DNA from: Escherichia phage EC.W14-3
Direction: 5' to 3' (one strand)
DNA: 64,000 nt
Sequence record: PP496998.1
The position numbers and the translations under genes are program-made. Each line of letters starts with the position of its first letter. The first letter of the stretch is position 1. The notes under the pieces are model-generated. The model ran no database searches. It had not been told where the DNA came from and saw only the letters and a program-made list of their open reading frames with translations. Shown here one piece after another: positions 12,635 to 22,672 of this stretch.

Positions 12635-15600
12635 TCACTCCTTAGGTCGAACTCTTACACGGAGTCTCGATTGACGCTTACTGCGTTCAAGCTTCTCTGA
12701 CAATGAGCCACGTTTAATCTTAGGCTTCCCTTCGTCATTAAACTTCTCCAAGAACTGCAAGTACTCAGTACGATTTGTTGTCTTGTAAGAAGGAATCTTG
12801 ATATCAGGGTTCTCTTCAATCACACGTCTCATCTTCGCTACATCATCCCTACCAAGCAACTTACTCTTAGCCTGTTCAGCTGTAGAACCAAAGATCTTCT
12901 CCAGTGCTCTGGATTTGTTACCACCTGCGGAAGAAGCACCAAGTTTAGCAATGGCAGAGTAATCATCAGCACTAAACCAAGCTACTGGATTATCACCATA
13001 CTTCTTCTTGTTTTCAGCAGCAGTCTGCAATGCACGTACAAAGCGACGGTTGTTACCAGCCTTATCTGCACCATGAACCCTGTCTAAAACTTCAGCCACA
13101 CTAGCTAATTCATCCAAGCTCTTCCCGCTTAAGAAAGCTTTCTCTACTTTATCAGCAAAGACCTCTTCCTGTTGTTTAATGCTTTCCAAGATATCAGAAT
13201 TTGCTTGAGATTTTTCATCATCAGGTAGAGCAGAACGAATCTTCTCCATCTCCAATTCTTCCTCTTGCAGTTTCTTAATATCAGAGTCAACCTTCTGAGC
13301 CTCCTCAATAGCCTTCCTAGTATCCGCATCCAAGTTATCAAGCTTACCTTCAGTATCTCCAGTAACCTTAACAATCTCTTTCTCGATAGGAGTCATTGAT
13401 TCGTACTTCTTAGCAAACTTCTCAACATCAGCTTCGATACGAGAACGAGCATTCTGATGTTCAGTAGGAGTCATAGGTTTCTCAAGAAGTGCATAACGGT
13501 TGTCCATATAGGAACCAGCAAACGCTTCAGCATCCTCTCTAGATATGCCCTTATCTTCCATAGTACGCATCAGGCGGCGATGAATGTCATCACGTTGACG
13601 TTGTACTGCCATAAGATCATTCTCACGCTCTTGGGCCGCTTTAAGCTCTTCACTGCGCTTAACTCTCTTGTCCACATCAAACTTACGGTTCATCTCTTCC
13701 GCTTGCTCGTACATCTTGTTCCACTTGGCCTGACGAGCATCTTCCTCTGCATCAGTTAAACGACGCTGACGATCAAGGTAATCTGACTCGGCGTTGTGGA
13801 TACGTTCAATGTAACTACGGAACTTCTCTGGAGGAACTGGAGAGTTCTTGTCATGGTGAGCAGCCAACTGTTTCAATGTACGAGATTCCTGAGCCTCACG
13901 AACAGGTTTAGGTAAACCTTCCATCATCTTCTCAATCTCACTCTTCTGAGCTGCAATAGCCTCTAAAGTTTTACGTTCATTCTCAACAGCAGCCTTAGCA
14001 TCTGAACGAGCCTGAGCCTTTTTCCTGAGGGTAGCAAGACGTTCTTCACGAGCCTGTAAGTGCTTAGCAGCAGCTTCGTACTGAGAGTTCTTGTTAGCTT
14101 TGTTGAAGGCATTCACTTCTCTGTTGTAGGTGTTAATAAACCCATCCCAAATATCCTTCATCTGACCAACTTCCAAAGCCTCTTCCCTACCAGCCTTCTC
14201 TGAAGATTTAAACTTCCCATCTACAAAGTCATTCATCAGCTTACGCATAGCATCTTTCTGAGCAGGACGTAAAGGTTCTGAATCAATCAAAGCATCAATC
14301 TCAGACTGAAGCTCTTTCTTCTGATCAACCAGTTTAGGAGCATCTTTCTTATCGAAAGCTTTGTTCTCTTCTAGAGCTTGTTGGTACAGTCTATCAAACT
14401 CATCCTCACGCTGCTTCTGATACAACCTTTCAGCACGACGTTTCAGACTATCCAAGTTAGTTACGTTCCCACCTAAACCTTTCTCTTCAGCACGTAATGC
14501 CTTAGTAGCAATGTCTTCTGGCAGACCACGTTCTTTAACCCATTCAGCAAAATTAGTTCGTACAGTGTTGTTCTTAGCAGTAGCAATACCTTGCTGAGAG
14601 GCCAGCTGGTTACGAGCCATTTCTTCATGACGTTCAGTGTTGATAGCATTATCTTCCTGACGAATACGACGCATCAGTTCCTTAGGATCGCCTTTATAAG
14701 CCAAGAAGTTTTCAGCAGTAGCTTTAGCTTTAGCAGCCTTAGAGTACAGAGAACGAGCAAAGCGTTCTGCACGATCTTTAGTAGCCTGACGAGCAGCACT
14801 AGACATAGCAGCTAAACGTTCTACACCACTTGCCGGTTTAACGTCCTGTACAGCTTCCTTAGGAGCTTTAGGAGCACGAGCAGGTAACGGCTCAGCTTTG
14901 ACTGTTGGTTCCTCTACGGTTGGTTCTGGAGCCTGTGCGGCCTCTTCTTGAGCACGTTGCTGTTCCATTGCACGACGCTCCTCTAGAGGGTTACGAGCAG
15001 GGAGAGGTTCAGCCTGTGGAGCTTGTTCGACCGGAGCTTCTTGAGCTGCTGCTGCCTCTTCTTCAGCTCGACGCTGTTCAGCCTGACGGATAGCGCGTCT
15101 TTGCGCAACTAAATCACGAGCTGTGAGAGGGGTTTCTTGAGGAGTAGAAGAAGGAAGATTTTCTTCCGTCACAGTACTAGAAGAAGGCTCCCGAACCGGT
15201 TCGGTTTCCACGTCATTTTGCGTCTTAAATTTAATGTCATCAACAACTGGTTCTTCTTCCATCTTAGCACGAGCTTCATCAGCAGTAGATTTAGCACGAG
15301 CAACTTCCAAATCACCACGAGCCAGAGAGCGGATAGCTTCACTATTAGACTCTTGTTGCTTAACACGTTGAGAACGGGCACGCTGAGAAGAGAAGCGATT
15401 CAGAGCATATTTAGCAGCACCGAGAGTGTTCATCACCAGACTAGGAGAAGAAGCCTCACGGAATCCATCATCAGTCAAGGAAGTCCAACCACGATCTTGG
15501 TTGCTCATGAATTTAGCTGTATTGTTCAGAGTATAAGCATCTTGAATAGGATTAAAACCTTCAGGCATACCTTTCAGTTTCTTCAACCCACCAATAGCTT

Positions 15601-17056
15601 TCTTCATCTCTGGAGAAACATTATCAGCCATCTTCTGTAGTTCAGCAGCTTTCTCTACAAAGTTATTAAAGTCTTCGCCATCACGAGCTTTGAATCGATT
15701 TGCTTCATTGTAGAAAGTCTTGTAAGCATCAATGAAATCACGGTCGGCTTGTGTACGGTTCTTAATATCAATCGGACTACCAGTAAAATCACCAGAAGCT
15801 CGGAGAGAGGTTAATTCACGATCTAGATTATCTAGAACATCTGTAAGAGCTTTCGTGTTGTCTTTGGTGTAGTCAGCCATTGCATCCTTCATAGCAACAG
15901 CCTGCTTCTGGTTGTGCTCGTTATCAGCGAATGCTTTACCACGAGTCTTAGCAGGAGAAGCTAAAGGGTTGAGGCCCGGAATGTTGGAATGTTCTTTCTG
16001 AATGGAAGCAGCTTTCTCAGCACGAGCTTGGTCAGTATTAAGAATACGCTGAGCAGCAGGAGAGTCTACAGCAACAGCATCTGTAATACGGAATCCATTC
16101 TCATCCAGAAGGTTCAGAGCAGAAGCAGCGTTAGCAGTTTCAGCTTTAGAGTAAGCTTCTTTCAGTTCATCAATATTCTTAGCACTACGAATTAGTTCAT
16201 CATCAGCAGCAATATCAGTCTTCGCATACTCTGGAGTGTTCTTGAAGACAGTAGAATCCGGACGGTTAATCAAACCATGAACCCCACCAACTGCACCACC
16301 GAATGCAGCACCCATAGCACCTTCTTCGATAGCACCTTCTAATACATTAGCAAAGGTTGTATCATCTCCATGCTTGTTCTGAGCTTCAGCAGCACCTACA
16401 AGAGCGCCACCTTTAGCACCAGCCACTGCGTTAGTAGCAACGTTCTGACCAATACGTCCAAGTGTGGACTCAGCTGTACCAACAGCGCCCGGAAGGATTC
16501 TCTGAGCCGCATAGTTAGCACCACCAACTAAGGCTGCATCTAGAATAGATTTATCTTCCCCCTCTTCAGGGGTTTGGTCTGCATATGCACGACCTGTCTC
16601 ACGACCTGCGATGATAGCAGCAGCAGCCAATGGGTTAGCAACAGTCATACCAATATCACCAGCAACGCCAGCATACTGACCTACAGTTTTACCAATCCCA
16701 TCCTCAATCTTATCCATACGTTCTTTCAGAAGATTCTGAGAGTTCTCTTGGATACGCTTACCATAACTAGTTTGTGCTCCAGCTAGATTCTCACCAATCT
16801 CAACTAAACCACCAATACCTTTAGCAGCACTAGCTGCAATATTTGCACCACCAGATTGAAGAGCATTTGACACACCTTGAGCAAACTCACCTATAGCACC
16901 ACGTTCTTCTTGTTGTGGTTGTGCTACTGGCTGTTCCTCAGGAATAGAGCCACCTGCTGCCTTATATTGTTCTCTCATTTGAGCTTGTTGCTCCGGAGAG
17001 GCATTCAGATACGCAGGAGCTTTGGAAGCTTCTTCCCACGGTTTAATGTTAGCCAT
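12635..17056 (-). CDS. large internal virion / ejection protein (about 1473 aa)
   Basis: start placed at MANIK with AAGGAG upstream; Gly/Ala-rich N-terminus, long charged coiled-coil regions, internal repeats AEPLPAR; last gene of the structural block. Confidence 0.5.
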   Translation of the reverse strand: MANIKPWEEASKAPAYLNASPEQQAQMREQYKAAGGSIPEEQPVAQPQQEERGAIGEFAQGVSNALQSGGANIAASAAKGIGGLVEIGENLAGAQTSYGKRIQENSQNLLKERMDKIEDGIGKTVGQYAGVAGDIGMTVANPLAAAAIIAGRETGRAYADQTPEEGEDKSILDAALVGGANYAAQRILPGAVGTAESTLGRIGQNVATNAVAGAKGGALVGAAEAQNKHGDDTTFANVLEGAIEEGAMGAAFGGAVGGVHGLINRPDSTVFKNTPEYAKTDIAADDELIRSAKNIDELKEAYSKAETANAASALNLLDENGFRITDAVAVDSPAAQRILNTDQARAEKAASIQKEHSNIPGLNPLASPAKTRGKAFADNEHNQKQAVAMKDAMADYTKDNTKALTDVLDNLDRELTSLRASGDFTGSPIDIKNRTQADRDFIDAYKTFYNEANRFKARDGEDFNNFVEKAAELQKMADNVSPEMKKAIGGLKKLKGMPEGFNPIQDAYTLNNTAKFMSNQDRGWTSLTDDGFREASSPSLVMNTLGAAKYALNRFSSQRARSQRVKQQESNSEAIRSLARGDLEVARAKSTADEARAKMEEEPVVDDIKFKTQNDVETEPVREPSSSTVTEENLPSSTPQETPLTARDLVAQRRAIRQAEQRRAEEEAAAAQEAPVEQAPQAEPLPARNPLEERRAMEQQRAQEEAAQAPEPTVEEPTVKAEPLPARAPKAPKEAVQDVKPASGVERLAAMSSAARQATKDRAERFARSLYSKAAKAKATAENFLAYKGDPKELMRRIRQEDNAINTERHEEMARNQLASQQGIATAKNNTVRTNFAEWVKERGLPEDIATKALRAEEKGLGGNVTNLDSLKRRAERLYQKQREDEFDRLYQQALEENKAFDKKDAPKLVDQKKELQSEIDALIDSEPLRPAQKDAMRKLMNDFVDGKFKSSEKAGREEALEVGQMKDIWDGFINTYNREVNAFNKANKNSQYEAAAKHLQAREERLATLRKKAQARSDAKAAVENERKTLEAIAAQKSEIEKMMEGLPKPVREAQESRTLKQLAAHHDKNSPVPPEKFRSYIERIHNAESDYLDRQRRLTDAEEDARQAKWNKMYEQAEEMNRKFDVDKRVKRSEELKAAQERENDLMAVQRQRDDIHRRLMRTMEDKGISREDAEAFAGSYMDNRYALLEKPMTPTEHQNARSRIEADVEKFAKKYESMTPIEKEIVKVTGDTEGKLDNLDADTRKAIEEAQKVDSDIKKLQEEELEMEKIRSALPDDEKSQANSDILESIKQQEEVFADKVEKAFLSGKSLDELASVAEVLDRVHGADKAGNNRRFVRALQTAAENKKKYGDNPVAWFSADDYSAIAKLGASSAGGNKSRALEKIFGSTAEQAKSKLLGRDDVAKMRRVIEENPDIKIPSYKTTNRTEYLQFLEKFNDEGKPKIKRGSLSEKLERSKRQSRLRVRVRPKE

Positions 17057-17094
17057 AACGTCTCCTTTTATAAATAAAAATGTCCTACCCCCTA

Positions 17095-17103
17095 TATACA
17101 TTA
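17095..17103 (-). promoter_or_regulatory. TAATGTATA motif (reverse complement on plus strand), candidate phage-sigma promoter upstream of the 1473-aa gene
   Basis: exact 9-mer about 40 nt upstream of the start codon. Confidence 0.4.
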
Positions 17104-17123
17104 TAGAAGGCAGGACTTAGGTC

Positions 17124-18779
17124 TTATTGAGTAAACCAGCTAGTGTCTTCGACAGCTGATAAAGCACCATTGAGCTTAGGATTGGTTGCTGCACCACCAA
17201 CTGCTTCTTCTGCTTGTTCAGAGAAAACACCTAGAGGGTCATAGAAACCACCAGAAGGGATTGCACGGTTAACCAATGCAGTAGCTCTCTTCTTATCCAT
17301 ACCAGAACCGATGTAAGCTTCAATCGTAGCTCTCTTAGCATCAGCAACACCTTTCATTGCAGAGGTGTGACCAACGTTAGCTTGCTTACGAGCATAAGCA
17401 AGAGCAGAATCAGTAGGACGCCATCCAGATTTCAGTGCAAACTTGTTGCCAACACGAACGAAGATTGATGGGTCTTCTGCAAAGTGCCCCAAGTCTTCTT
17501 CGGTAAGAGAACGAGTAGCACCGATTTCAGCCCTTGCGGAGTTCATGATAGCCTGCATGTAAGCAGAACGAGCTGTCTGATAGTCTTTATCCTTAACAGC
17601 CTTATCAGCCAAATCCAAGTCTTTGTTAGACTGGTTAAACAGGCCACCTTTCTCTGCCCACTGCTTAGCAACCGTACCTTCAGCTGTATTCTGAGCAAGA
17701 CGAACTTCTTTCGGGTTAAAGTTAAAACTCTGAGCAGCTTGTTCAGCACGTTCAGCCTTAACCTTATCACGATAACCAATCAACTCTTTCTGACGTTCAA
17801 AGTTCATGTTAGCTCTTTCTTCAGCGGCACGACGAGTTTCATCAGCACGCTCACGCATAGTTTGCTCTTGAATCTGTTGACGTCTATCCCATTCAGCATT
17901 TTGTCGTTCTTCACGAGCAGCATACAACGCTTCTTTCTGAGCAGGGTCTACAGCTCTCATCTTCAGTAGAGATGGGTCTCCGTTAGCAATAGCAGCTGCA
18001 ATCGAGTCTTGAGAGAAGCCTTGTTCAATCAGAGCATCACGGTTAGCTTCCAGTTGCTTCTTAGTCTCATCTTGATTAGCCATTCCCTGACCAATCTGGA
18101 AAGCTTCAATAGGAGACTTACCTGACATAATGGAAAGACCTACACCCATCAAACCTGTGTAGAAACTAGAGTTCTGATAGAATGGTTCTTTCTGTAGCTT
18201 GTTCCAAGCTTCCGAAGGGTCTTTAGCTTTCGCAACTTGCAAGATATCATTGTTAACACGTTCCTGATCTTTAGCACGAGTAGCAGCAGCCATTCCATCA
18301 CCAGTATCTTGTCCTTGAGCAAGAGTATTAATCACACCTTGTGCCTGTTCCACCTGAGAAGGAGTAAACTCCATAGGACCAGCTTCTAACGGTTTAGTAG
18401 GAGGTGTTACCGGAAGAGGGTCACTAGGCATAAGCCCAGCATCCTGTAAACCTTGATCAGTGGATAGGTTAGGGTTAGACGCTACAGGGGCCGGTGCTCC
18501 AATATCAATACCTTGAAGACTTGTAGGAGTTCCTTGATTCTGCTGTTCCATAAGACGTTGCTGGAATCCCGGATTAACCATAGCAGTCTGATCTTCTTCT
18601 GCCTGAGAGACAAGACCCGCAAGAGATGAAGGTACAGCAGGACGTTGATACATAGAAATATCTGCTGTCTGAGTTGGTCTAGCCATATAAGGAGAGGCCG
18701 AAGCCGCTCCCGGATTAACACCATAGAAAGTATTTCTCGGGTCACGACTTCTGACCTGAGCGTAAGTTGTCTGTTGCAT
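17124..18779 (-). CDS. internal virion protein (putative)
   Basis: 551 aa; position among ejection-protein genes. Confidence 0.4.
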   Translation of the reverse strand: MQQTTYAQVRSRDPRNTFYGVNPGAASASPYMARPTQTADISMYQRPAVPSSLAGLVSQAEEDQTAMVNPGFQQRLMEQQNQGTPTSLQGIDIGAPAPVASNPNLSTDQGLQDAGLMPSDPLPVTPPTKPLEAGPMEFTPSQVEQAQGVINTLAQGQDTGDGMAAATRAKDQERVNNDILQVAKAKDPSEAWNKLQKEPFYQNSSFYTGLMGVGLSIMSGKSPIEAFQIGQGMANQDETKKQLEANRDALIEQGFSQDSIAAAIANGDPSLLKMRAVDPAQKEALYAAREERQNAEWDRRQQIQEQTMRERADETRRAAEERANMNFERQKELIGYRDKVKAERAEQAAQSFNFNPKEVRLAQNTAEGTVAKQWAEKGGLFNQSNKDLDLADKAVKDKDYQTARSAYMQAIMNSARAEIGATRSLTEEDLGHFAEDPSIFVRVGNKFALKSGWRPTDSALAYARKQANVGHTSAMKGVADAKRATIEAYIGSGMDKKRATALVNRAIPSGGFYDPLGVFSEQAEEAVGGAATNPKLNGALSAVEDTSWFTQ

Positions 18780-18792
18780 ATTTATCTCCTAA

Positions 18793-19761
18793 TTAAGTAC
18801 TAGCCAACCCACCGATTACACCCCCAGCTAATGCACCCCAAGGCCCAAAGGAAGAGCCAGCTGCTGCACCACTCATAGCTCCACCAAGGAAACCACCTTT
18901 GCCACCAGATGTTTTAGTAGTTGTAGTTTGTCCGAGAGCACCGTTAAGTACACCTGCTGCACCGAGTTGGTTATTGATATCTTGCCATCCCCAATTAGCT
19001 GCGTTCTGAGCATTCTGGTAGGCATTATCATATTCATTCTGTTGTTGCTGTTGTTGCTGCAACCCTGCATTCCATTGATTCATTATTTGCTGTTGAGACA
19101 AATTAGCACCCTGCTGACCTAGGTTAGAAAGGTTAGAACCAATATTAGAAAGACCAGAGAGAGCAGCTGCCTGATTCTGTCTATTACCAGAGAGGATGCT
19201 TTCAGCTTGGCTAATAGCCGAGTTATAGGCACTATTGGTAATATCTGTTGCTTGGCCTTGCATCTGATTCAGAGCATCACCTTGGGCAAAAGACTTAGCC
19301 ATACGAGCACCTGAACCTTGTTGACCAGCAAACTGTTGAGCTAACTGAGGAAGAGCATTACGTGCCAAGTTCTGTTGAACCTGTTCATTATTAGCTGTAA
19401 TGGCTGCTTGCACAGCGTCATCATCATACAGTTGACCAGCGAGAGCACCAATCTGCTCTCCAGTAATCCCACCTTGTCCAGAGAGGCTCTGATAACCTTT
19501 ATAGGCATTATCTAGATAACCCAAGCCTTGACCTGCTGCATCCATATACTGCTGTGAGAGAGTACCTAGAGCGCCAGATTGTGCTAGGTTGTTAAGTGCC
19601 TCTGTCTGATTGTTATTAAACCCTACATTGTCACGATAAACATAATCCCCTGAACTAGTATTACCAATCTGTTGGTTAAGCTGGTCAATATACTGTTGAA
19701 TGTATTCAGGGCGAATCATTTGGGAAGTAGTTTTACTACCCCCGCCTCCGAAAAGTCCCAT
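18793..19761 (-). CDS. Gln/Asn/Gly-rich virion protein, paralog of 19774..20826
   Basis: low-complexity Q/N-rich composition, N-terminal GLFGGGG and Gly-rich hydrophobic C-terminus shared with neighbour. Confidence 0.4.
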   Translation of the reverse strand: MGLFGGGGSKTTSQMIRPEYIQQYIDQLNQQIGNTSSGDYVYRDNVGFNNNQTEALNNLAQSGALGTLSQQYMDAAGQGLGYLDNAYKGYQSLSGQGGITGEQIGALAGQLYDDDAVQAAITANNEQVQQNLARNALPQLAQQFAGQQGSGARMAKSFAQGDALNQMQGQATDITNSAYNSAISQAESILSGNRQNQAAALSGLSNIGSNLSNLGQQGANLSQQQIMNQWNAGLQQQQQQQNEYDNAYQNAQNAANWGWQDINNQLGAAGVLNGALGQTTTTKTSGGKGGFLGGAMSGAAAGSSFGPWGALAGGVIGGLAST

Positions 19762-19773
19762 ATCAAATCTCCT

Positions 19774-20826
19774 TTAGTTTGCTCCAAATGCCCCTAAGAC
19801 ACCACCTAAGATATTACTACCTGCTGTGGATAACCAGTTAGACTGACCTTTCTGTTGAGAAAGATTAGAACCACCAATCATAGGACCAGCCATTCCAGAT
19901 TGCCCACCTGAGTTGTTATAGGAACTCCAAGCATTCTGAGTCTGTTGATTAGGAGAGAAAGCACCCATACGACCTGCAATACCTAATCCAGTGATACCAG
20001 CACCTAGGAGCTGTTGTCCAGTATTAACCCCCGGAGCAGCATTCTTAATCGTGTACCCAGCCATTGGGCTTACACTATTTAATACATTAAGTTGGTTGTT
20101 AAGCTGATTCCACCTATACTGTTGAGAGCCAATAGCGTTCTGCCAATTAATATCAGCTTGAGCTTGGGCTTGTTGCTGTTGTAGATTACCAGCCATGAGT
20201 TGATTCTGGATAGCTTGTTGAGTTGCCTGAACACCTTGAGCACCAAGATTGAGATTCTGTCCAGCCAATCCTGACTGAGCACCAAGTAAGCCCCTCTGGA
20301 AGTTTTGGTCTTGTTGAAGAGCACTGATTCCCATATTCTTGCCACTGATAGTACGAGCTAAGTTTGTATTAGCACTGTTCAGAGCAGCACCTTGAGCAGC
20401 AGCTCTACGGAGAGAGCCTGAATCAGAACCATTTCCGAGGGATACATTGGAAGCTGCCTTACTAGTCGCTTGAGCAAGAGCTGAGTTATTCAATCCTTTA
20501 CTAAAGTTATTAACACCATCAGCAGTTAGACCACCACCATTGACAATATTCTGATACTGCTGTGCAAGAGAGTTTAATTGGTCCAACCCTTGCTGTGTAC
20601 GAGGCGTGTACATATCAGCCAATTGCTTCTGAGTAGTAGAAGCTGCTAAGTTGTTCAGAGCACCCTGTTGGTTGCCATTAAACCCAGCCAGTTGTTGGGA
20701 GATGAATCCCGGATCGTTGTTCTGCATATTCTGAGCATTAGCAACAATCTGCTTCAGCAGGGCATCAACCTGAGAGGAAGGGGCCACTGTGGTTTTGCTA
20801 GAAGCTGATTTTCCAAATAAAGACAT
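19774..20826 (-). CDS. Gln/Asn/Gly-rich virion protein, paralog of 18793..19761
   Basis: same composition and termini as neighbour (MSLFGKSAS ... GVLGAFGAN). Confidence 0.4.
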   Translation of the reverse strand: MSLFGKSASSKTTVAPSSQVDALLKQIVANAQNMQNNDPGFISQQLAGFNGNQQGALNNLAASTTQKQLADMYTPRTQQGLDQLNSLAQQYQNIVNGGGLTADGVNNFSKGLNNSALAQATSKAASNVSLGNGSDSGSLRRAAAQGAALNSANTNLARTISGKNMGISALQQDQNFQRGLLGAQSGLAGQNLNLGAQGVQATQQAIQNQLMAGNLQQQQAQAQADINWQNAIGSQQYRWNQLNNQLNVLNSVSPMAGYTIKNAAPGVNTGQQLLGAGITGLGIAGRMGAFSPNQQTQNAWSSYNNSGGQSGMAGPMIGGSNLSQQKGQSNWLSTAGSNILGGVLGAFGAN

Positions 20827-20845: not shown

Positions 20846-21628
20846 TTACTTTACACCAATGCTAGCCAGACGTCTGAGCACTGCTTGTGTTTGTGGACTG
20901 TACTGAGAACCTGCTGCATGTGGTGCACTTGCCCTCTGAACTGTTTGAGAAGTGGGAGGTTTACCAGCAAGCATAGCAGCTACCCCTAATACTGCATTAC
21001 CAAAGTTCTGTTGAGGTTTCTGATTTTCGCCTTCCTGCACTTCATCAGAGTAAAACTCTACTGGATTTCCACCTAAAGCACCTGTCTTAGAAGCAGCAAT
21101 CTCTGCCTGAGTTGGAGCTTGTGCGGCCTTCTCTCTATCTAACAAGTCAGGACTAAACTGATTGACTGGTTGAACAGCTTGCAAAGCTCCAACAGGGTTA
21201 GCAATCTGAGAAGCTGCATCACCATAGAAAGGAAGAAAGTGTTTATTGTTCATGGAGTCAAGAGCTTGTGGAGTAAACCCCTTTTTACCAGCGAACATTT
21301 GCTTAGCTCCACCGATACCTTCTGAATAACCAACCATTGCTTTCTTAACATCACCATTAAAAGCTTTTAAGTTATCTCTTATGTAACGAGCGCCCATATC
21401 AATATTCTTTGCTGGGTCAAGTCTATCTTCTAGTTTGTAACCGTAATCTTTAGCCAACCCTTTACTGATCTGCATTAAACCTACAGGACCAGTTCCAGAG
21501 GCCACTGTAGGACGACCACTGGACTCTCTTTGGATGACAGCATGAATCAAAGCAGCAGGAATCCCATACTTCTTTGAAGCTTGCTGTACCATTGGGTCTA
21601 GTTCTTCGATACCCATTCTGATTGCCAT
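20846..21628 (-). CDS. lytic transglycosylase (SLT domain), virion-associated
   Basis: SLT motif QRESSGRP...GLMQIS with the catalytic Glu context; sits within the internal virion protein genes. Confidence 0.7.
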   Translation of the reverse strand: MAIRMGIEELDPMVQQASKKYGIPAALIHAVIQRESSGRPTVASGTGPVGLMQISKGLAKDYGYKLEDRLDPAKNIDMGARYIRDNLKAFNGDVKKAMVGYSEGIGGAKQMFAGKKGFTPQALDSMNNKHFLPFYGDAASQIANPVGALQAVQPVNQFSPDLLDREKAAQAPTQAEIAASKTGALGGNPVEFYSDEVQEGENQKPQQNFGNAVLGVAAMLAGKPPTSQTVQRASAPHAAGSQYSPQTQAVLRRLASIGVK

Positions 21629-21637
21629 AATATCTCC

Positions 21638-22672
21638 TTATTGTATACTCCTGAATATCTTTCTAGCATCTAATATTGGAATACTTAACCCGAGGGCACC
21701 ACCCCCTCCTAAATCATATTGACTACTCCAAGAGTAAATCATCCTTCCGAAACCTGTACCGAAAGAAGAGCCATTCATCATGTGAGATCTTGTGTGTTGA
21801 AAATACCAACCACTAGCCTTGCCTCTTATTGCTCCTGCTCCGTAAGATAGTGGTATCATTGGATAGGCCAGAGATGTGTTACCGCCACTCATAGGCATAA
21901 ATCCCTCAACACTAAAAGGGGTTCTATATGTAGAAAATACACACTGAGACCCATTTGGAGAGAAGATATTTAAACCACCATTGTGGGTTGGTACTCCAGA
22001 ACCATCACAGAAGACGGCAATTCTAACACCACCAATGTATCCTGTTTGGTTTGTGTTACCATTATCATGAGACCTGTTCTGGTACACATAAACAACCCTA
22101 TTGGATGGATTGTATAGCAGCCCTGCTCCACCGTTACTCCAATTCGCGTAGACAGTTGCTCGGCTCATATCAAAACCACCAATATCTGGTATTTGAAGAG
22201 AACCATTTATGTCACCCTCCCAAGCCCAAATACATTGACCAACAACCCCAGAATCGGATATTGAGAAATAGTCAGCAGAGTTGGAGAATGTGATTCCATA
22301 ATTCCTGTTAGCTCTAGGCCATATTTGATACACATTAAAAGCCATATCAAATACCCAACCGTTTACATTATAGTCCATAGTAACTCTGAAGGTTGAGTTA
22401 TTAATAACAGATATATCCGTTATCCAATACACATCAGACGTTACGTTAGGAGGTATGTATCTCTCCCAAACAACAGACCCTGTTGGAACTACAACTATCT
22501 GACCACTACCATCCCAACCACTTATAGGCAAGTCACAGGTATTTCCACTAAAAGAGAAATTCCCACTGACTCTATTTCTGAGTTGAGGGAATGTGCTACC
22601 ACTATCGATGTAAATATCAGCAGGTGCCGCTGGACCCGGACCAACCGGGCGTGTCCATATTCCATATGCCAT
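21638..22672 (-). CDS. virion structural protein (putative)
   Basis: 344 aa; position only. Confidence 0.35.
   Translation of the reverse strand: MAYGIWTRPVGPGPAAPADIYIDSGSTFPQLRNRVSGNFSFSGNTCDLPISGWDGSGQIVVVPTGSVVWERYIPPNVTSDVYWITDISVINNSTFRVTMDYNVNGWVFDMAFNVYQIWPRANRNYGITFSNSADYFSISDSGVVGQCIWAWEGDINGSLQIPDIGGFDMSRATVYANWSNGGAGLLYNPSNRVVYVYQNRSHDNGNTNQTGYIGGVRIAVFCDGSGVPTHNGGLNIFSPNGSQCVFSTYRTPFSVEGFMPMSGGNTSLAYPMIPLSYGAGAIRGKASGWYFQHTRSHMMNGSSFGTGFGRMIYSWSSQYDLGGGGALGLSIPILDARKIFRSIQ

What the first reader, a model, noticed from the sequence alone, without database searches (positions are those of the whole stretch)
18793..20826. Tandem pair of Gln/Asn/Gly-rich virion proteins
Two adjacent paralogs (322 and 350 aa) are dominated by Q, N, G, A and S, with poly-Q runs (QQQQQQQ), similar N-termini (MGLFGGGG / MSLFGKSAS) and Gly-rich hydrophobic C-termini. 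They sit among internal virion protein genes next to the SLT transglycosylase. The composition resembles intrinsically disordered or prion-like sequence and may form a flexible ejected core or envelope-spanning conduit.
Basis: seen in the sequence. Interest (0 to 1): 0.4.

Follow-up and report, generated by a model that had tools for sequence, protein, structure and literature searches.

The report
Duplicated Kuravirus DNA-ejection proteins gp21/gp22
These two neighbouring genes encode proteins that a phiEco32/SU10-type E. coli phage carries in its head and expels at infection, as already shown for phage SU10; they are an old gene duplicate whose conserved glycine-zipper tails probably insert into the host membrane to start the DNA channel.

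Summary
Two minus-strand ORFs (18793-19761, 322 aa; 19774-20826, 350 aa) are 62% Q/N/G/A/S and only 7-9% charged. They are true paralogs: hhalign 99.9%, E=2e-31, and z=10-14 against composition-preserving shuffles.

The window is a Kuravirus. The 322-aa protein is 100% identical to SU10 gp22 and the 350-aa protein is 96.6% identical to SU10 gp21. Published SDS-PAGE/MS shows gp20-24 in SU10 virions and absent after genome release. The "virion/ejected protein" reading is therefore already established.

What this analysis adds:
- Both proteins belong to phrog_4287. Its members include LUZ24 gp53, the counterpart of Pa223 gp56, which is the proposed T7 gp14-like outer-membrane channel.
- The family shares a roughly 40-residue C-terminal glycine-zipper hairpin with P22 gp7.
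- That tail is the most conserved part of gp22, with invariant Gly at 290/294/298/302/306 and 309/313/317.
- The duplication is old and both copies are retained. Grimontviridae and Bruynoghevirus have one copy.
- Some relatives fuse a self-cleaving S74 chaperone directly after the zipper.

The "disordered/prion-like" idea rests on composition alone. AF2 monomer models are unreliable (pLDDT 38-40) but predict long helices.

Best model: a duplicated gp7/gp14-class membrane-inserting ejectosome subunit. This is inferred, not shown. Interest is low to moderate.

The parts
18793..19761 (-). CDS, 322 aa: ortholog of SU10/phiEco32 gp22 ('DNA injection/ejection protein'). This is the gp22-type paralog, which keeps the ancestral-looking GPWG glycine-zipper tail.
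   Evidence: ORF. 100% identical to SU10 gp22. phrog_4287 E=3.5e-109. SD site AAAGGAG upstream.
19774..20826 (-). CDS, 350 aa: ortholog of SU10 gp21. This is the gp21-type paralog, which has a split C-terminal hydrophobic module.
   Evidence: ORF. 96.6% identical to SU10 gp21. phrog_4287 E=5.5e-117. SD site AAGGAGG upstream.
18796..18909 (-). gp22 aa 285-322: Gly linker plus glycine-zipper hairpin (GGFLGGAMSGAAAGSSF - GPWG turn - ALAGGVIGGLAST). Proposed membrane-insertion and oligomerisation element.
   Evidence: Across 18 family members the invariant residues are G287, G290, G294, G298, G302, G306, P307, G309, G313 and G317. The C-tail mean conservation is 0.80 against 0.61 for the core. 84 of 134 full-length family representatives have GxxxGxxxG in the last 70 aa.
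19039..19059 (-). gp22 aa 235-241: QQQQQQQ run inside the most Q/N-rich stretch (aa 206-265, 50% Q+N).
   Evidence: At DNA level it is a CAA/CAG run (TRF CTGTTGTTG x2.3). The run itself varies in the family and only Q241 is invariant. AF2 places it in a helix spanning aa 219-271, at low confidence.
19954..20013 (-). gp21 aa 272-291: first Gly/Ala-rich hydrophobic segment (QLLGAGITGLGIAGRMGAFS).
   Evidence: Highest Kyte-Doolittle 19-residue window in the protein (1.16). Q272, G275, G282, G285 and G288 are invariant in 17 family members.
19843..19953 (-). gp21 aa 292-328: variable Q/N/G/S/Y-rich loop between the two hydrophobic segments.
   Evidence: Large indels in alignment A2. It is the only segment on the 'disordered' side of the charge-hydropathy boundary.
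19777..19842 (-). gp21 aa 329-350: second Gly-rich hydrophobic segment (SNWLSTAGSNILGGVLGAFGAN).
   Evidence: Kyte-Doolittle window value 1.03. The ending 'NILGGVLGAFGA' is conserved in close family members, with shorter 'G.G..NGL...F' endings in distant ones.
19702..19761 (-). gp22 aa 1-20: conserved N-terminal motif MGLFGGG..TTS...RP.Y.
   Evidence: M1, R17, P18 and Y20 are invariant. 83 of 134 family representatives start with 'MG'.
20767..20826 (-). gp21 aa 1-20: matching N-terminal motif MSLFG...KTTV.PS..V.
   Evidence: V14, P16 and V20 are invariant. It aligns with the gp22 N-terminus in hhalign.
20846..21628 (-). Context: gp20, a 260-aa SLT lytic transglycosylase, the first gene of the ejection module.
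   Evidence: Pfam SLT E=1.2e-23. 99.2% identical to SU10 gp20. SU10 gp20 is an ejection protein.
17124..18779 (-). Context: gp23, 551 aa, an ejection protein. Candidate periplasmic-tunnel subunit by size and synteny only.
   Evidence: 94.9% identical to SU10 gp23. No pairwise similarity to LUZ24 gp51 or P22 gp20. Weak similarity to the ~550-aa Grimontviridae proteins (E=5e-10).
12635..17056 (-). Context: gp24, 1473 aa from the SD-preceded ATG at 17056, an ejection protein. Candidate inner-membrane/cytoplasmic subunit by size and synteny only.
   Evidence: 97.6% identical to SU10 gp24. SD site AAAGGAG before the 17056 start and none before 17101. No similarity to LUZ24 gp50.

Best explanation
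The two genes are the Kuravirus ejection proteins gp21 and gp22. They are packaged in the phage head and expelled through the tail at infection. This has been shown for SU10, whose gp22 is identical to the protein encoded here.

They are ancient tandem paralogs of one podovirus ejection-protein family. That family also contains the single-copy 'DNA injection proteins' of Grimontviridae and Bruynoghevirus gp53/Pa223 gp56. It shares its C-terminal module with P22 gp7.

Inferred mechanism, step by step:
1. The low-charge, Cys-free, Q/N/A/L-rich body is a set of long, conformationally plastic helices. These can travel through the narrow portal-nozzle channel and refold outside.
2. The conserved C-terminal glycine-zipper hairpin packs helix against helix and inserts into a host membrane. 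By analogy with T7 gp14, P22 gp7 and DEV gp73 this is most likely the outer membrane. It nucleates the membrane-proximal ring of the trans-envelope DNA channel.
3. gp20 (SLT) cuts the peptidoglycan, and gp23 and gp24 extend the channel across the periplasm and inner membrane.
4. Both paralogs have been kept side by side across deep divergence. They are therefore probably non-redundant, either as a hetero-oligomeric ring or as two rings with distinct partners or membranes.
For: Shown or direct:
- Identity to SU10 gp22 (100%) and gp21 (96.6%), with the same gene order gp19 to gp24.
- SU10 gp20-24 are present in virions and lost in genome-release intermediates.
- Both proteins match phrog_4287 'DNA ejection protein'.
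- Paralogy.

Family links:
- LUZ24 gp53 matches phrog_4287 at E=2e-10 and the gp22 profile at hhalign 92.8%, E=4e-7 over 218 columns.
- The Pa223 preprint assigns its gp56, a 313-aa protein at the same position as LUZ24 gp53, as a virion protein and putative gp14-like outer-membrane channel. It predicts TM helices at 278-291 and 296-311 of gp56; in the same-length LUZ24 gp53 those positions fall on the two zipper arms.
- The Grimontviridae single-copy homologs match at E about 1e-17.
- The gp22-derived family profile matches the P22 gp7 family at 94%, E=1.4e-7. Reversed and column-shuffled controls score only 14-20 against the real score of 59.
- 4 of 97 family members hit Pfam P22_gp7, and members hit curated glycine-zipper Pfam models 19 times in total.

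Zipper:
- Invariant i+4 Gly ladder, and the highest conservation in the protein.

Retention of both copies:
- Relatives with only 43-50% orthologous identity keep the order SLT, gp21-type, gp22-type, ~500 aa, >1100 aa. The paralogs cluster by type.

Background from papers:
- T7 gp14 forms pores and localises to the outer membrane. P22 gp7 partitions into nanodiscs. DEV gp73 is a nonameric pore.
- Glycine-zipper toxins depolarise membranes.
Against: - There is no direct evidence for membrane insertion, for which membrane is targeted, for stoichiometry, or for a gp21-gp22 interaction.
- The hydrophobic segments are short and weakly hydrophobic (best Kyte-Doolittle 19-residue window 0.94-1.16), so they are not classical TM helices.
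- The window's C-termini do not reach the thresholds of the curated Gly-zipper Pfam models.
- Pfam P22_gp7 and T7_gp14 do not hit either protein, and hhalign against T7 gp14 finds nothing.
- The block-shuffle control shows that most of the P22 gp7 similarity comes from the ~40-aa tail (44+/-7 of 59). Full-length homology is unproven.
- AF2 monomer models are unreliable (pLDDT 37.6 and 40.0), so the helical body is only a prediction. Hydrophobic periodicity peaks at 3.4-3.7 residues but is not significant against shuffles.
- gp23 and gp24 are assigned roles by size and synteny only.
Confidence: 0.6

Rival explanations
1. The proteins are ejected but act at the inner membrane rather than the outer one. 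The glycine-zipper tails would form or prime the cytoplasmic-membrane pore, or transiently depolarise it, as glycine-zipper T6SS/T7SS/CDI toxins do. Another component, or the tail needle and nozzle, would breach the outer membrane. A variant of this idea has one paralog serving each membrane.
For: Characterised glycine-zipper effectors are inner-membrane depolarising toxins. SU10 already builds a 28-nm nozzle from tail proteins and has a tail needle proposed to pierce the outer membrane. Two retained paralogs with different tail architectures would fit two different targets.
Against: The established analogues in the same genomic position are assigned to the outer membrane: T7 gp14 by fractionation, DEV gp73, and P22 gp7. 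The large gp24 is the usual inner-membrane candidate by synteny. Nothing here discriminates between the two membranes.
Confidence: 0.2
2. They are mainly intrinsically disordered, prion-like 'filler' or lubricant proteins of the capsid interior. In this view they would help organise or pressurise DNA, or plug the portal channel. They would be expelled passively, with no channel-forming role.
For: Extreme Q/N/G/S composition, with up to 50% Q+N per 60 aa. Very low AF2 confidence. No resolved density in the SU10 virion map. gp21 aa 293-328 falls on the disordered side of the charge-hydropathy plot.
Against: The family alignment has many invariant non-repetitive positions and a collinear architecture kept across lineages with under 30% identity. 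The most conserved part is the hydrophobic Gly-zipper tail, not the Q/N-rich body. Overall charge-hydropathy falls on the folded side. AF2 secondary structure is helical, not coil. The shallow alignments (17-18 sequences) and the monomer-only modelling could account for the low pLDDT. Other ejection proteins are also invisible in virion maps.
Confidence: 0.1
3. They are trimeric fibre- or plug-like tail-channel components, for example an internal extension of the needle or nozzle plug, rather than membrane pores.
For: 16 of 97 family members, including the Grimontviridae orthologs, carry a Peptidase_S74 intramolecular chaperone. To my knowledge that domain is otherwise typical of trimeric fibres and spikes. 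The bodies are predicted to be long helices.
Against: The SU10 tail was modelled from portal, adaptor, nozzle, needle and fibre proteins with no density assigned to gp21 or gp22, and both are listed among the ejection proteins. The window's proteins lack S74. A threefold-based assembly is also compatible with hexameric or nonameric pores.
Confidence: 0.07

Closest known systems
SU10 / phiEco32 gp21 and gp22 (Kuravirus ejection proteins)
   Same: Essentially the same proteins: 96.6% and 100% identity, with identical synteny gp19 to gp24. Virion presence and loss on genome release have been shown experimentally for SU10.
   Different: Nothing substantive differs. The SU10/Kuravirus and related ejection-protein papers I could read treat gp20-24 collectively, and word searches in three of them and in the library found no mention of the gp21/gp22 paralogy, the glycine zipper, or links to other phage lineages.
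Bruynoghevirus LUZ24 gp53 / Pa223 gp56 (putative outer-membrane channel of the ejectosome)
   Same: Homologous by profile (hhalign 92.8%, E=4e-7; phrog_4287 E=2e-10). Similar size (313 aa). Same layout of a Q/N-rich body, a poly-Gly linker and a two-arm Gly-zipper tail. Same position upstream of a ~500-aa and a >1000-aa virion protein.
   Different: Single copy there and two paralogs here. The N-terminal ~60 residues are not alignable. The neighbouring ejection proteins show no detectable similarity. The outer-membrane-channel role of Pa223 gp56 is itself a prediction from MemBrain and AlphaFold3.
P22 gp7 (Pfam PF25688), the gp14-like ejection protein of P22-like phages
   Same: Same compositional class (58% QNGAS, 10% charged). 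Same genomic role as the first and smallest ejection gene. The C-terminal motif is nearly the same (P22 '...SSTPWGAAIGGGIGLLGSLF' against gp22 '...SSFGPWGALAGGVIGGLAST'). The profile similarity is not reproduced by reversed or column-shuffled controls.
   Different: gp7 is about 100 aa shorter. The Pfam P22_gp7 model does not hit the window proteins. Beyond the ~40-aa tail and a 44-column N-proximal segment (57% probability), homology is not established (block-shuffle control). The gp7 N-terminal 20 aa are cleaved by host OpdA, and there is no evidence for that here.
T7 gp14 (Pfam PF24072) and DEV gp73, structurally characterised outer-membrane pore subunits of ejectosomes
   Same: A functional analogy only. 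Each is the small, membrane-active ejection protein encoded first in the ejection operon, ahead of the tunnel and large subunits.
   Different: No sequence relationship is detectable (Pfam, hhalign, PDB sequence searches). Those proteins are smaller (gp73 is 17.7 kDa; gp14-like proteins are 181-240 aa) and single copy.
Glycine-zipper membrane proteins and toxins (Pfam Gly-zipper_YMGG, Gly-zipper_Omp, 'Glycine zipper 2TM'; T7SS/T6SS/CDI depolarising effectors)
   Same: An (G/A/S)xxxG ladder with invariant glycines in a two-arm hairpin. Members of the gp22 family hit these Pfam models 19 times.
   Different: The window's own tails score below the thresholds (E=0.86-6.5). The phage proteins carry a ~270-aa helical Q/N-rich body and are delivered from a capsid, not through a secretion system.

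Membership tests
Kuravirus ejection proteins gp21/gp22 (SU10, phiEco32) | High sequence identity to the reference proteins | tested here: met
   100% identity to SU10 gp22 and 96.6% to SU10 gp21 in global alignment. tblastn gives 100% identity to phiEco32 over the unmasked aa 1-227.
Kuravirus ejection proteins gp21/gp22 (SU10, phiEco32) | Position in the late operon between the SLT gene (gp20) and gp23/gp24 | tested here: met
   Same order and sizes as SU10_019 to SU10_024.
Kuravirus ejection proteins gp21/gp22 (SU10, phiEco32) | Present in virions and released on genome ejection | not testable with these tools
   Published for SU10 by MS and by SDS-PAGE of virions against genome-release intermediates. 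It is transferred here on the basis of sequence identity.
PHROG 4287 'DNA ejection protein' | Significant full-length match to the family HMM | tested here: met
   E=3.5e-109 (aa 1-310) and E=5.5e-117 (aa 1-350).
Bruynoghevirus gp53 / Pa223 gp56-type putative outer-membrane channel | Detectable homology plus shared architecture (Q/N-rich body, Gly linker, two-arm Gly-rich tail) | tested here: met
   hhalign 92.8%, E=4e-7 over 218 columns. LUZ24 gp53 hits phrog_4287 at E=2e-10. Tail sequences are compared.
Bruynoghevirus gp53 / Pa223 gp56-type putative outer-membrane channel | Forms a (nonameric) channel in the outer membrane | not testable with these tools
   This is only an AlphaFold3/MemBrain prediction even for Pa223. 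No multimer prediction tool was available here.
P22_gp7 (Pfam PF25688) | Match to the Pfam model above the gathering threshold | tested here: not met
   No Pfam hit at E<=0.1 for either protein. Only 4 of 97 wider family members hit it, best E=5.2e-6.
P22_gp7 (Pfam PF25688) | Profile-profile homology over the whole protein | tested here: inconclusive
   A1 against A4 gives 57%, E=1e-4 over 44 columns. A3 against A4 gives 94%, E=1.4e-7. Block-shuffled controls reach 44+/-7 (maximum 57) against the real 59, so only the C-terminal ~40 aa is robustly shared.
T7_gp14 (Pfam PF24072) | Sequence or profile similarity to T7 gp14 | tested here: not met
   No Pfam hit. hhalign probability 0.07%.
T7_gp14 (Pfam PF24072) | Outer-membrane localisation and pore activity | not testable with these tools
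   This needs membrane fractionation or lipid-bilayer assays. It is known for T7 gp14 and DEV gp73.
Glycine-zipper membrane modules (Pfam PF13441, PF13488, PF05433) | Conserved (G/A/S)xxxG ladder in a hydrophobic segment | tested here: met
   gp22 has G290/294/298/302/306 and G309/313/317 invariant in 18 sequences. gp21 has A276-G280-A284-G288, with G275, G282, G285 and G288 invariant.
Glycine-zipper membrane modules (Pfam PF13441, PF13488, PF05433) | Match to the curated Pfam models above threshold | tested here: not met
   The gp22 tail alone gives PF05433 E=0.86 and PF13441 E=6.5. The gp21 tail gives no hit.
Prion-like / intrinsically disordered Q/N-rich domains | Q/N-rich, low-charge, low-complexity composition | tested here: met
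   25-27% Q+N overall and 47-50% in the richest 60-aa window, with 3-5% charged residues.
Prion-like / intrinsically disordered Q/N-rich domains | Lack of a defined structure (disorder) | tested here: inconclusive
   AF2 pLDDT is 38-40, but with predicted long helices and shallow alignments. Charge-hydropathy falls on the folded side except gp21 aa 293-328. Conserved W/Y/L positions are present. No dedicated disorder or PLAAC predictor was available.
Peptidase_S74 (intramolecular chaperone) fusion proteins | C-terminal S74 domain with the SDxxLK cleavage motif | tested here: not met
   Absent from both window proteins. Present in 16 of 97 relatives, including the Grimontviridae orthologs.

The most novel reading that the evidence does not exclude
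Kuraviruses and their relatives may use a two-component version of the membrane-proximal ejectosome subunit. gp21 and gp22 would be obligate partners, either as a hetero-oligomeric ring or as two stacked or separately targeted rings, one per membrane. Both would be built on a glycine-zipper hairpin that is a deeply conserved membrane-insertion element of podovirus ejection proteins, shared among the P22-, LUZ24-, phiEco32- and 7-11-type lineages. In some lineages that hairpin would be matured by a self-cleaving S74 trimerisation chaperone, which would imply a threefold-based assembly pathway for the pore.
Probability: 0.3. Interest if true: 0.5.

Novelty: already known. Interest (0 to 1): 0.28.

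Why it matters
The finding as written, a tandem pair of Q/N/G-rich virion proteins, is already covered by SU10 proteomics and cryo-EM work.

The added value is for people studying how short-tailed phages cross the Gram-negative envelope.
- Of the ejection proteins here, only this family gave clear sequence links from phiEco32-like phages to LUZ24-like phages (gp23 gave only a weak match to the 7-11-like phages).
- Through its tail it also links to P22-like phages.
- It therefore offers an anchor for annotating ejection modules that otherwise have to be matched by size and synteny.
- It points to the glycine-zipper hairpin as a concrete mutagenesis target.
- It identifies Kuraviruses as a natural case where this subunit was duplicated and both copies kept. 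That makes hetero-oligomer against division-of-labour questions testable in an existing model phage, SU10.

Kuraviruses are used as therapeutic candidates, so correct annotation of these genes (often 'hypothetical protein') has modest practical value.

Tried and rejected
1. Structure route. AlphaFold2 on both family alignments gave mean pLDDT 37.6 and 40.0 with no residue above 70. I did not run fold search because matches to such models are meaningless. No multimer prediction tool was available.
2. PDB sequence searches with single sequences and with profiles found only chance hits at E>=0.4.
3. Pfam and NCBIfam gave nothing for either protein. The tails alone against Pfam were sub-threshold.
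4. T7 gp14 homology is rejected.
5. Full-length homology to P22 gp7 looked good at first (94%) but was downgraded after the block-shuffle control.
6. Helical periodicity of hydrophobicity peaks at 3.4-3.7 residues but is not above the shuffle 95th percentile, so it is not used as evidence.
7. The charge-hydropathy disorder proxy is borderline and not decisive.
8. Similarity of gp23 and gp24 to LUZ24 gp51/gp50 and P22 gp20 is absent, so the synteny argument cannot be backed by homology.
9. DNA-level repeats and slippage: only a 21-nt CAA/CAG run.
10. Literature. The phiEco32 2008 paper (PMC2587145) and the 2026 in-situ P22 channel preprint were not readable. The Privateer paper says nothing about these genes. 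Word searches for 'glycine zipper' with phage ejection, and for a Kuravirus ejection-protein paralogy, found nothing relevant.
Full report
**1. What is in the sequence**

The ORF listing shows two adjacent minus-strand ORFs at exactly the reported coordinates. One is 18793..19761 (322 aa, MGLFGGGGSK...). The other is 19774..20826 (350 aa, MSLFGKSASS...). Both lie in a tightly packed late operon. Each has a strong Shine-Dalgarno site, and the intergenic gaps are 12-19 nt.

Composition is extreme. Q+N+G+A+S is 62-63% against 37% in the neighbouring structural proteins. D+E+K+R is 7-9% against 24%. Neither protein has Cys or His. The QQQQQQQ run is at aa 235-241 of the 322-aa protein. At DNA level it is only a 21-nt CAA/CAG run.

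The Gly-rich hydrophobic tails are real. In the 322-aa protein the tail is aa 285-322. In the 350-aa protein there are two segments, aa 272-291 and 329-350, separated by a Q/N/G/S/Y loop. Their hydrophobicity is modest, with the best Kyte-Doolittle 19-residue window at 0.94-1.16.

**2. The paralogy is not a composition artefact**

BLASTP with compositional adjustment gives 30% identity over 309 aa, E=9e-12. The Smith-Waterman score of 265 compares with 92.5+/-12.6 for global shuffles and 112+/-15 for 25-aa block shuffles, so z is 13.7 and 10. Profiles of the two orthologous groups align collinearly at hhalign 99.9%, E=2.2e-31.

**3. Identity of the locus**

The region is 100% identical at DNA level to Escherichia phages EC.W2-6 and EC.W8-1 (H1, H2). 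It is 90-99.9% identical to many other ~77-kb Escherichia and Shigella podophages in the phage collection, including Kuravirus 172-1, MN03, IMEP8 and Paul.

Against phage SU10 (KM044272), the 322-aa protein is 100% identical to gp22 and the 350-aa protein is 96.6% identical to gp21. The gene order is the same: gp19 (DUF6453), gp20 (SLT), gp21, gp22, gp23, gp24. The upstream neighbour is an SLT transglycosylase (Pfam E=1.2e-23).

**4. What is already known experimentally**

Mirzaei et al. 2014 detected gp20-24 by MS in SU10 preparations, with gp21 at 53% coverage and gp22 at 49% coverage (PMC4281155).

Siborova et al. 2022 showed by SDS-PAGE/MS that gp20-24 and the needle gp18 are present in virions and absent from genome-release intermediates. 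They concluded that gp20-24 are ejection proteins that extend the nozzle into a trans-envelope channel. No density could be assigned to them (PMC9509320).

The central interpretation is supported, but it is not new.

**5. What family this is**

Neither protein matches Pfam, NCBIfam or any PDB sequence. Both match phrog_4287 'DNA ejection protein' at E=1e-109 to 1e-117.

An exhaustive profile search of 1.84 billion cluster representatives found 354 clusters at E<=1e-3 and 61 at E<=1e-10. Most are 300-430 aa and match over their full length.

Three lineage comparisons matter.

(a) Grimontviridae (Cronobacter A24, Aeromonas BUCT695, Proteus P59). These phages have a single copy of ~400-410 aa at the head of an analogous module of ~280, ~180, ~550 and >1300 aa. 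That copy is closer to gp22 (E about 1e-17) than to gp21 (E about 1e-7).

(b) Bruynoghevirus. LUZ24 gp53 (313 aa) matches phrog_4287 at E=2e-10 and the gp22 profile at hhalign 92.8%, E=4e-7 over 218 columns. It has the same layout of a Q/N-rich body, a poly-Gly linker and a two-arm Gly-rich tail. Its Pa223 counterpart, gp56, was recently shown by MS to be a virion protein. It was proposed to be the T7 gp14-like outer-membrane channel, upstream of a periplasmic-tunnel protein (505 aa) and a gp16-like protein (1055 aa). MemBrain predicts TM helices at gp56 residues 278-291 and 296-311; in the same-length LUZ24 gp53 these positions fall on the two Gly-zipper arms (bioRxiv 10.1101/2025.06.11.659172).

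(c) P22 gp7. This is the canonical gp14-like 'DNA transfer' protein. It has the same compositional signature (58% QNGAS, 10% charged) and a near-identical C-terminal motif. P22 gp7 ends '...SSTPWGAAIGGGIGLLGSLF', gp22 ends '...SSFGPWGALAGGVIGGLAST', and family member P0153 ends '...GPWGAAIGGGLGLLGGLF'.

I tested the P22 gp7 link formally.
- Pfam P22_gp7 does not hit the window proteins, although it does hit 4 of 97 family members.
- The gp22 profile against a P22 gp7 family profile gives 57%, E=1e-4 for a 44-column N-proximal segment.
- A 97-member family profile gives 94%, E=1.4e-7.
- Controls: a reversed gp7 profile scores 20, and column-shuffled profiles score 14+/-3. Shuffles of 20-column blocks still score 44+/-7 (maximum 57) against the real 59.

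The robustly shared element is therefore the ~40-residue C-terminal module. Full-length homology is plausible but unproven.

T7 gp14 shows no detectable relationship.

**6. Anatomy and conservation**

In the gp22 group the invariant positions pile up in the tail with i+4 spacing: G290-G294-G298-G302-G306, then P307, then G309-G313-G317. This is a textbook glycine zipper arranged as two short arms around an FGPWG turn. It is the most conserved part of the protein, at 0.80 mean column conservation against 0.61 for the body.

In the gp21 group the first arm (QQLLGAGITGLGIAG.LGAF) is conserved. It is followed by a length-variable low-complexity loop and then a second short hydrophobic Gly-rich end.

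Across 134 full-length family representatives, 84 have GxxxGxxxG in the last 70 residues, 39 have a GPWG-like turn, and 83 begin with 'MG'. Members of the family hit curated glycine-zipper Pfam models 19 times. The window's own tails are sub-threshold.

**7. Structure and disorder**

AF2 on both family alignments was poor: pLDDT 37.6 and 40.0, and pTM 0.30 and 0.19. The models nevertheless predict long helices from about aa 18 to 270, and a non-helical tail. With 17-18 sequences and monomer-only modelling this cannot separate a disordered monomer from a protein that folds only as an oligomer. I did not run fold searches on these models.

The Q/N-richest 60-aa windows (47-50% Q+N) are 22-27% hydrophobic and contain conserved W/Y/L/I positions. 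Charge-hydropathy places everything except gp21 aa 293-328 on the folded side. Hydrophobic periodicity peaks at 3.4-3.7 residues but is not significant.

'Prion-like/disordered' therefore describes the composition only. It is not demonstrated as a property. Conformational plasticity, as documented for other ejection proteins (PMC8954989), is the more economical reading.

**8. Age of the duplication**

Two distant relatives were examined. One is an 85.7-kb metagenomic contig (L009). The other is a module inside a 389.6-kb E. coli contig (L010). Both keep the order SLT, ~334 aa, 322 aa, ~500-560 aa, >1100 aa.

The upstream proteins cluster with gp21 and the downstream ones with gp22, at 43-50% orthologous identity against about 30% between paralogs. 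Both copies have been retained side by side for a long time, which argues that they are not redundant.

The gp22 type keeps the tail form that is widespread in the family. The gp21 type has a derived, split tail.

**9. Mechanism (inferred)**

Shown: the proteins are in the virion and are expelled, for SU10.

Inferred from homology to Pa223 gp56/LUZ24 gp53, from the shared P22 gp7 tail, from gene order and from conservation: gp21 and gp22 are the small, membrane-active subunit class of the ejectosome.

The proposed steps are these.
1. The low-charge helical bodies pass through the portal-nozzle channel and refold.
2. The glycine-zipper hairpins pack and insert into a membrane. The outer membrane is most likely, by analogy with T7 gp14 (pore-forming and outer-membrane localised), P22 gp7 (partitions into nanodiscs) and DEV gp73 (a nonameric pore).
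3. gp20 cuts the peptidoglycan.
4. gp23 and gp24 complete the conduit. Their roles rest on size and synteny alone, because they show no similarity to their presumed counterparts.

Whether the paralogs form one mixed ring or two different assemblies cannot be decided here. An inner-membrane role is a live alternative, because characterised glycine-zipper effectors depolarise the cytoplasmic membrane.

**10. A family-level detail worth recording**

16 of 97 relatives, including the Grimontviridae orthologs, carry a Peptidase_S74 intramolecular-chaperone domain (best E=1.5e-11).

In these proteins the Gly zipper is followed immediately by the S74 cleavage motif. Examples are P0113 '...GAVAGGLMGAF|SDATLKDRVK' and A24 '...GAQAGWW|SDASMKKNVKK'. 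Self-cleavage there would leave a mature C-terminus of zipper plus an aromatic residue. That is the natural ending of P22 gp7 and of many S74-less members.

To my knowledge, S74 chaperones assist the folding of trimeric fibres and spikes. This hints that the family assembles on a threefold basis, which is compatible with hexameric or nonameric pores. The window's proteins lack this domain.

**11. Verdict**

The feature is already known as the Kuravirus ejection proteins gp21 and gp22.

The incremental points are the paralogy, the conserved glycine-zipper hairpin, the link to Pa223 gp56 and the P22 gp7 tail, the long retention of both copies, and the S74-fused variants. My keyword searches of the held literature, and the Kuravirus and ejection-protein papers I read, turned up none of them, though I did not search specifically for the P22 gp7 link or the S74 fusions. 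They are of specialist interest.

Interest is 0.28.

Noticed in passing
L003:6866-8098 (Cronobacter phage A24 gp089), L004:6878-8080, L005:6869-8098, and proteins P0113, P0133 and others: Single-copy homologs of gp21/gp22 in Grimontviridae, and about 16% of the wider family, carry a C-terminal Peptidase_S74 self-cleaving chaperone. Its 'SDxxLK' cleavage motif sits directly after the glycine zipper. Autocleavage would produce the same zipper-plus-aromatic C-terminus that P22 gp7 and many other members have naturally. I did not search the papers specifically for ejection proteins with an intramolecular chaperone, and none of those I read mentions one.
   Followed up: partly
L010:945-15875 (NCBI GCA_023211535.1, contig DAHCAP010000002.1, 389,554 bp, E. 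coli): A SU10-type structural module lies inside a large E. coli chromosomal contig. It includes Pfam SU10_MCP, SU10_portal, terminase, SLT, gp21-like, gp22-like, a 498-aa protein and a 1113-aa protein. This suggests a prophage-like or otherwise integrated relative of the Kuraviruses, which to my knowledge are considered lytic. A similar gp22 homolog (P0095) sits on a 317-kb Enterobacter cloacae contig.
   Followed up: partly
window 21638-22672 (-): gp19 (DUF6453; PHROG 'membrane protein') is only 61% identical to SU10 gp19, while the flanking genes gp20-24 are 95-100% identical. This is a local mosaic or hypervariable gene between the tail-needle gene and the ejection module. Its role is unknown.
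   Followed up: no
window 17056 vs 17101 (-): The longest-ORF start of gp24 (ATG at 17101, 1488 aa) has no ribosome-binding site. The ATG at 17056 is preceded by AAAGGAG and gives the 1473 aa annotated for SU10 gp24, so it is the likely true start.
   Followed up: yes
window 12635-18779 (-), compared with L006 and L008: Among the ejection proteins, the gp21/gp22 family gave the clearest cross-lineage sequence similarity. gp23 matches only the ~550-aa Grimontviridae proteins, and weakly (E=5e-10). gp24 was compared only with LUZ24 gp50 and showed no similarity. SU10's Supplementary Table 1 labels gp24 'Nuclear Pore Complex', and the phage 172-1 record labels its gp24 homolog 'erythrocyte binding protein 1'; both look like spurious low-complexity annotations.
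   Followed up: partly
phrog_4287 (database annotation): PHROGs files this 'DNA ejection protein' family under the category 'DNA, RNA and nucleotide metabolism'. That is a mis-binning for a virion ejection protein. GenBank records of near-identical phages annotate gp21 variously as hypothetical protein, membrane protein or neck appendage protein.
   Followed up: no
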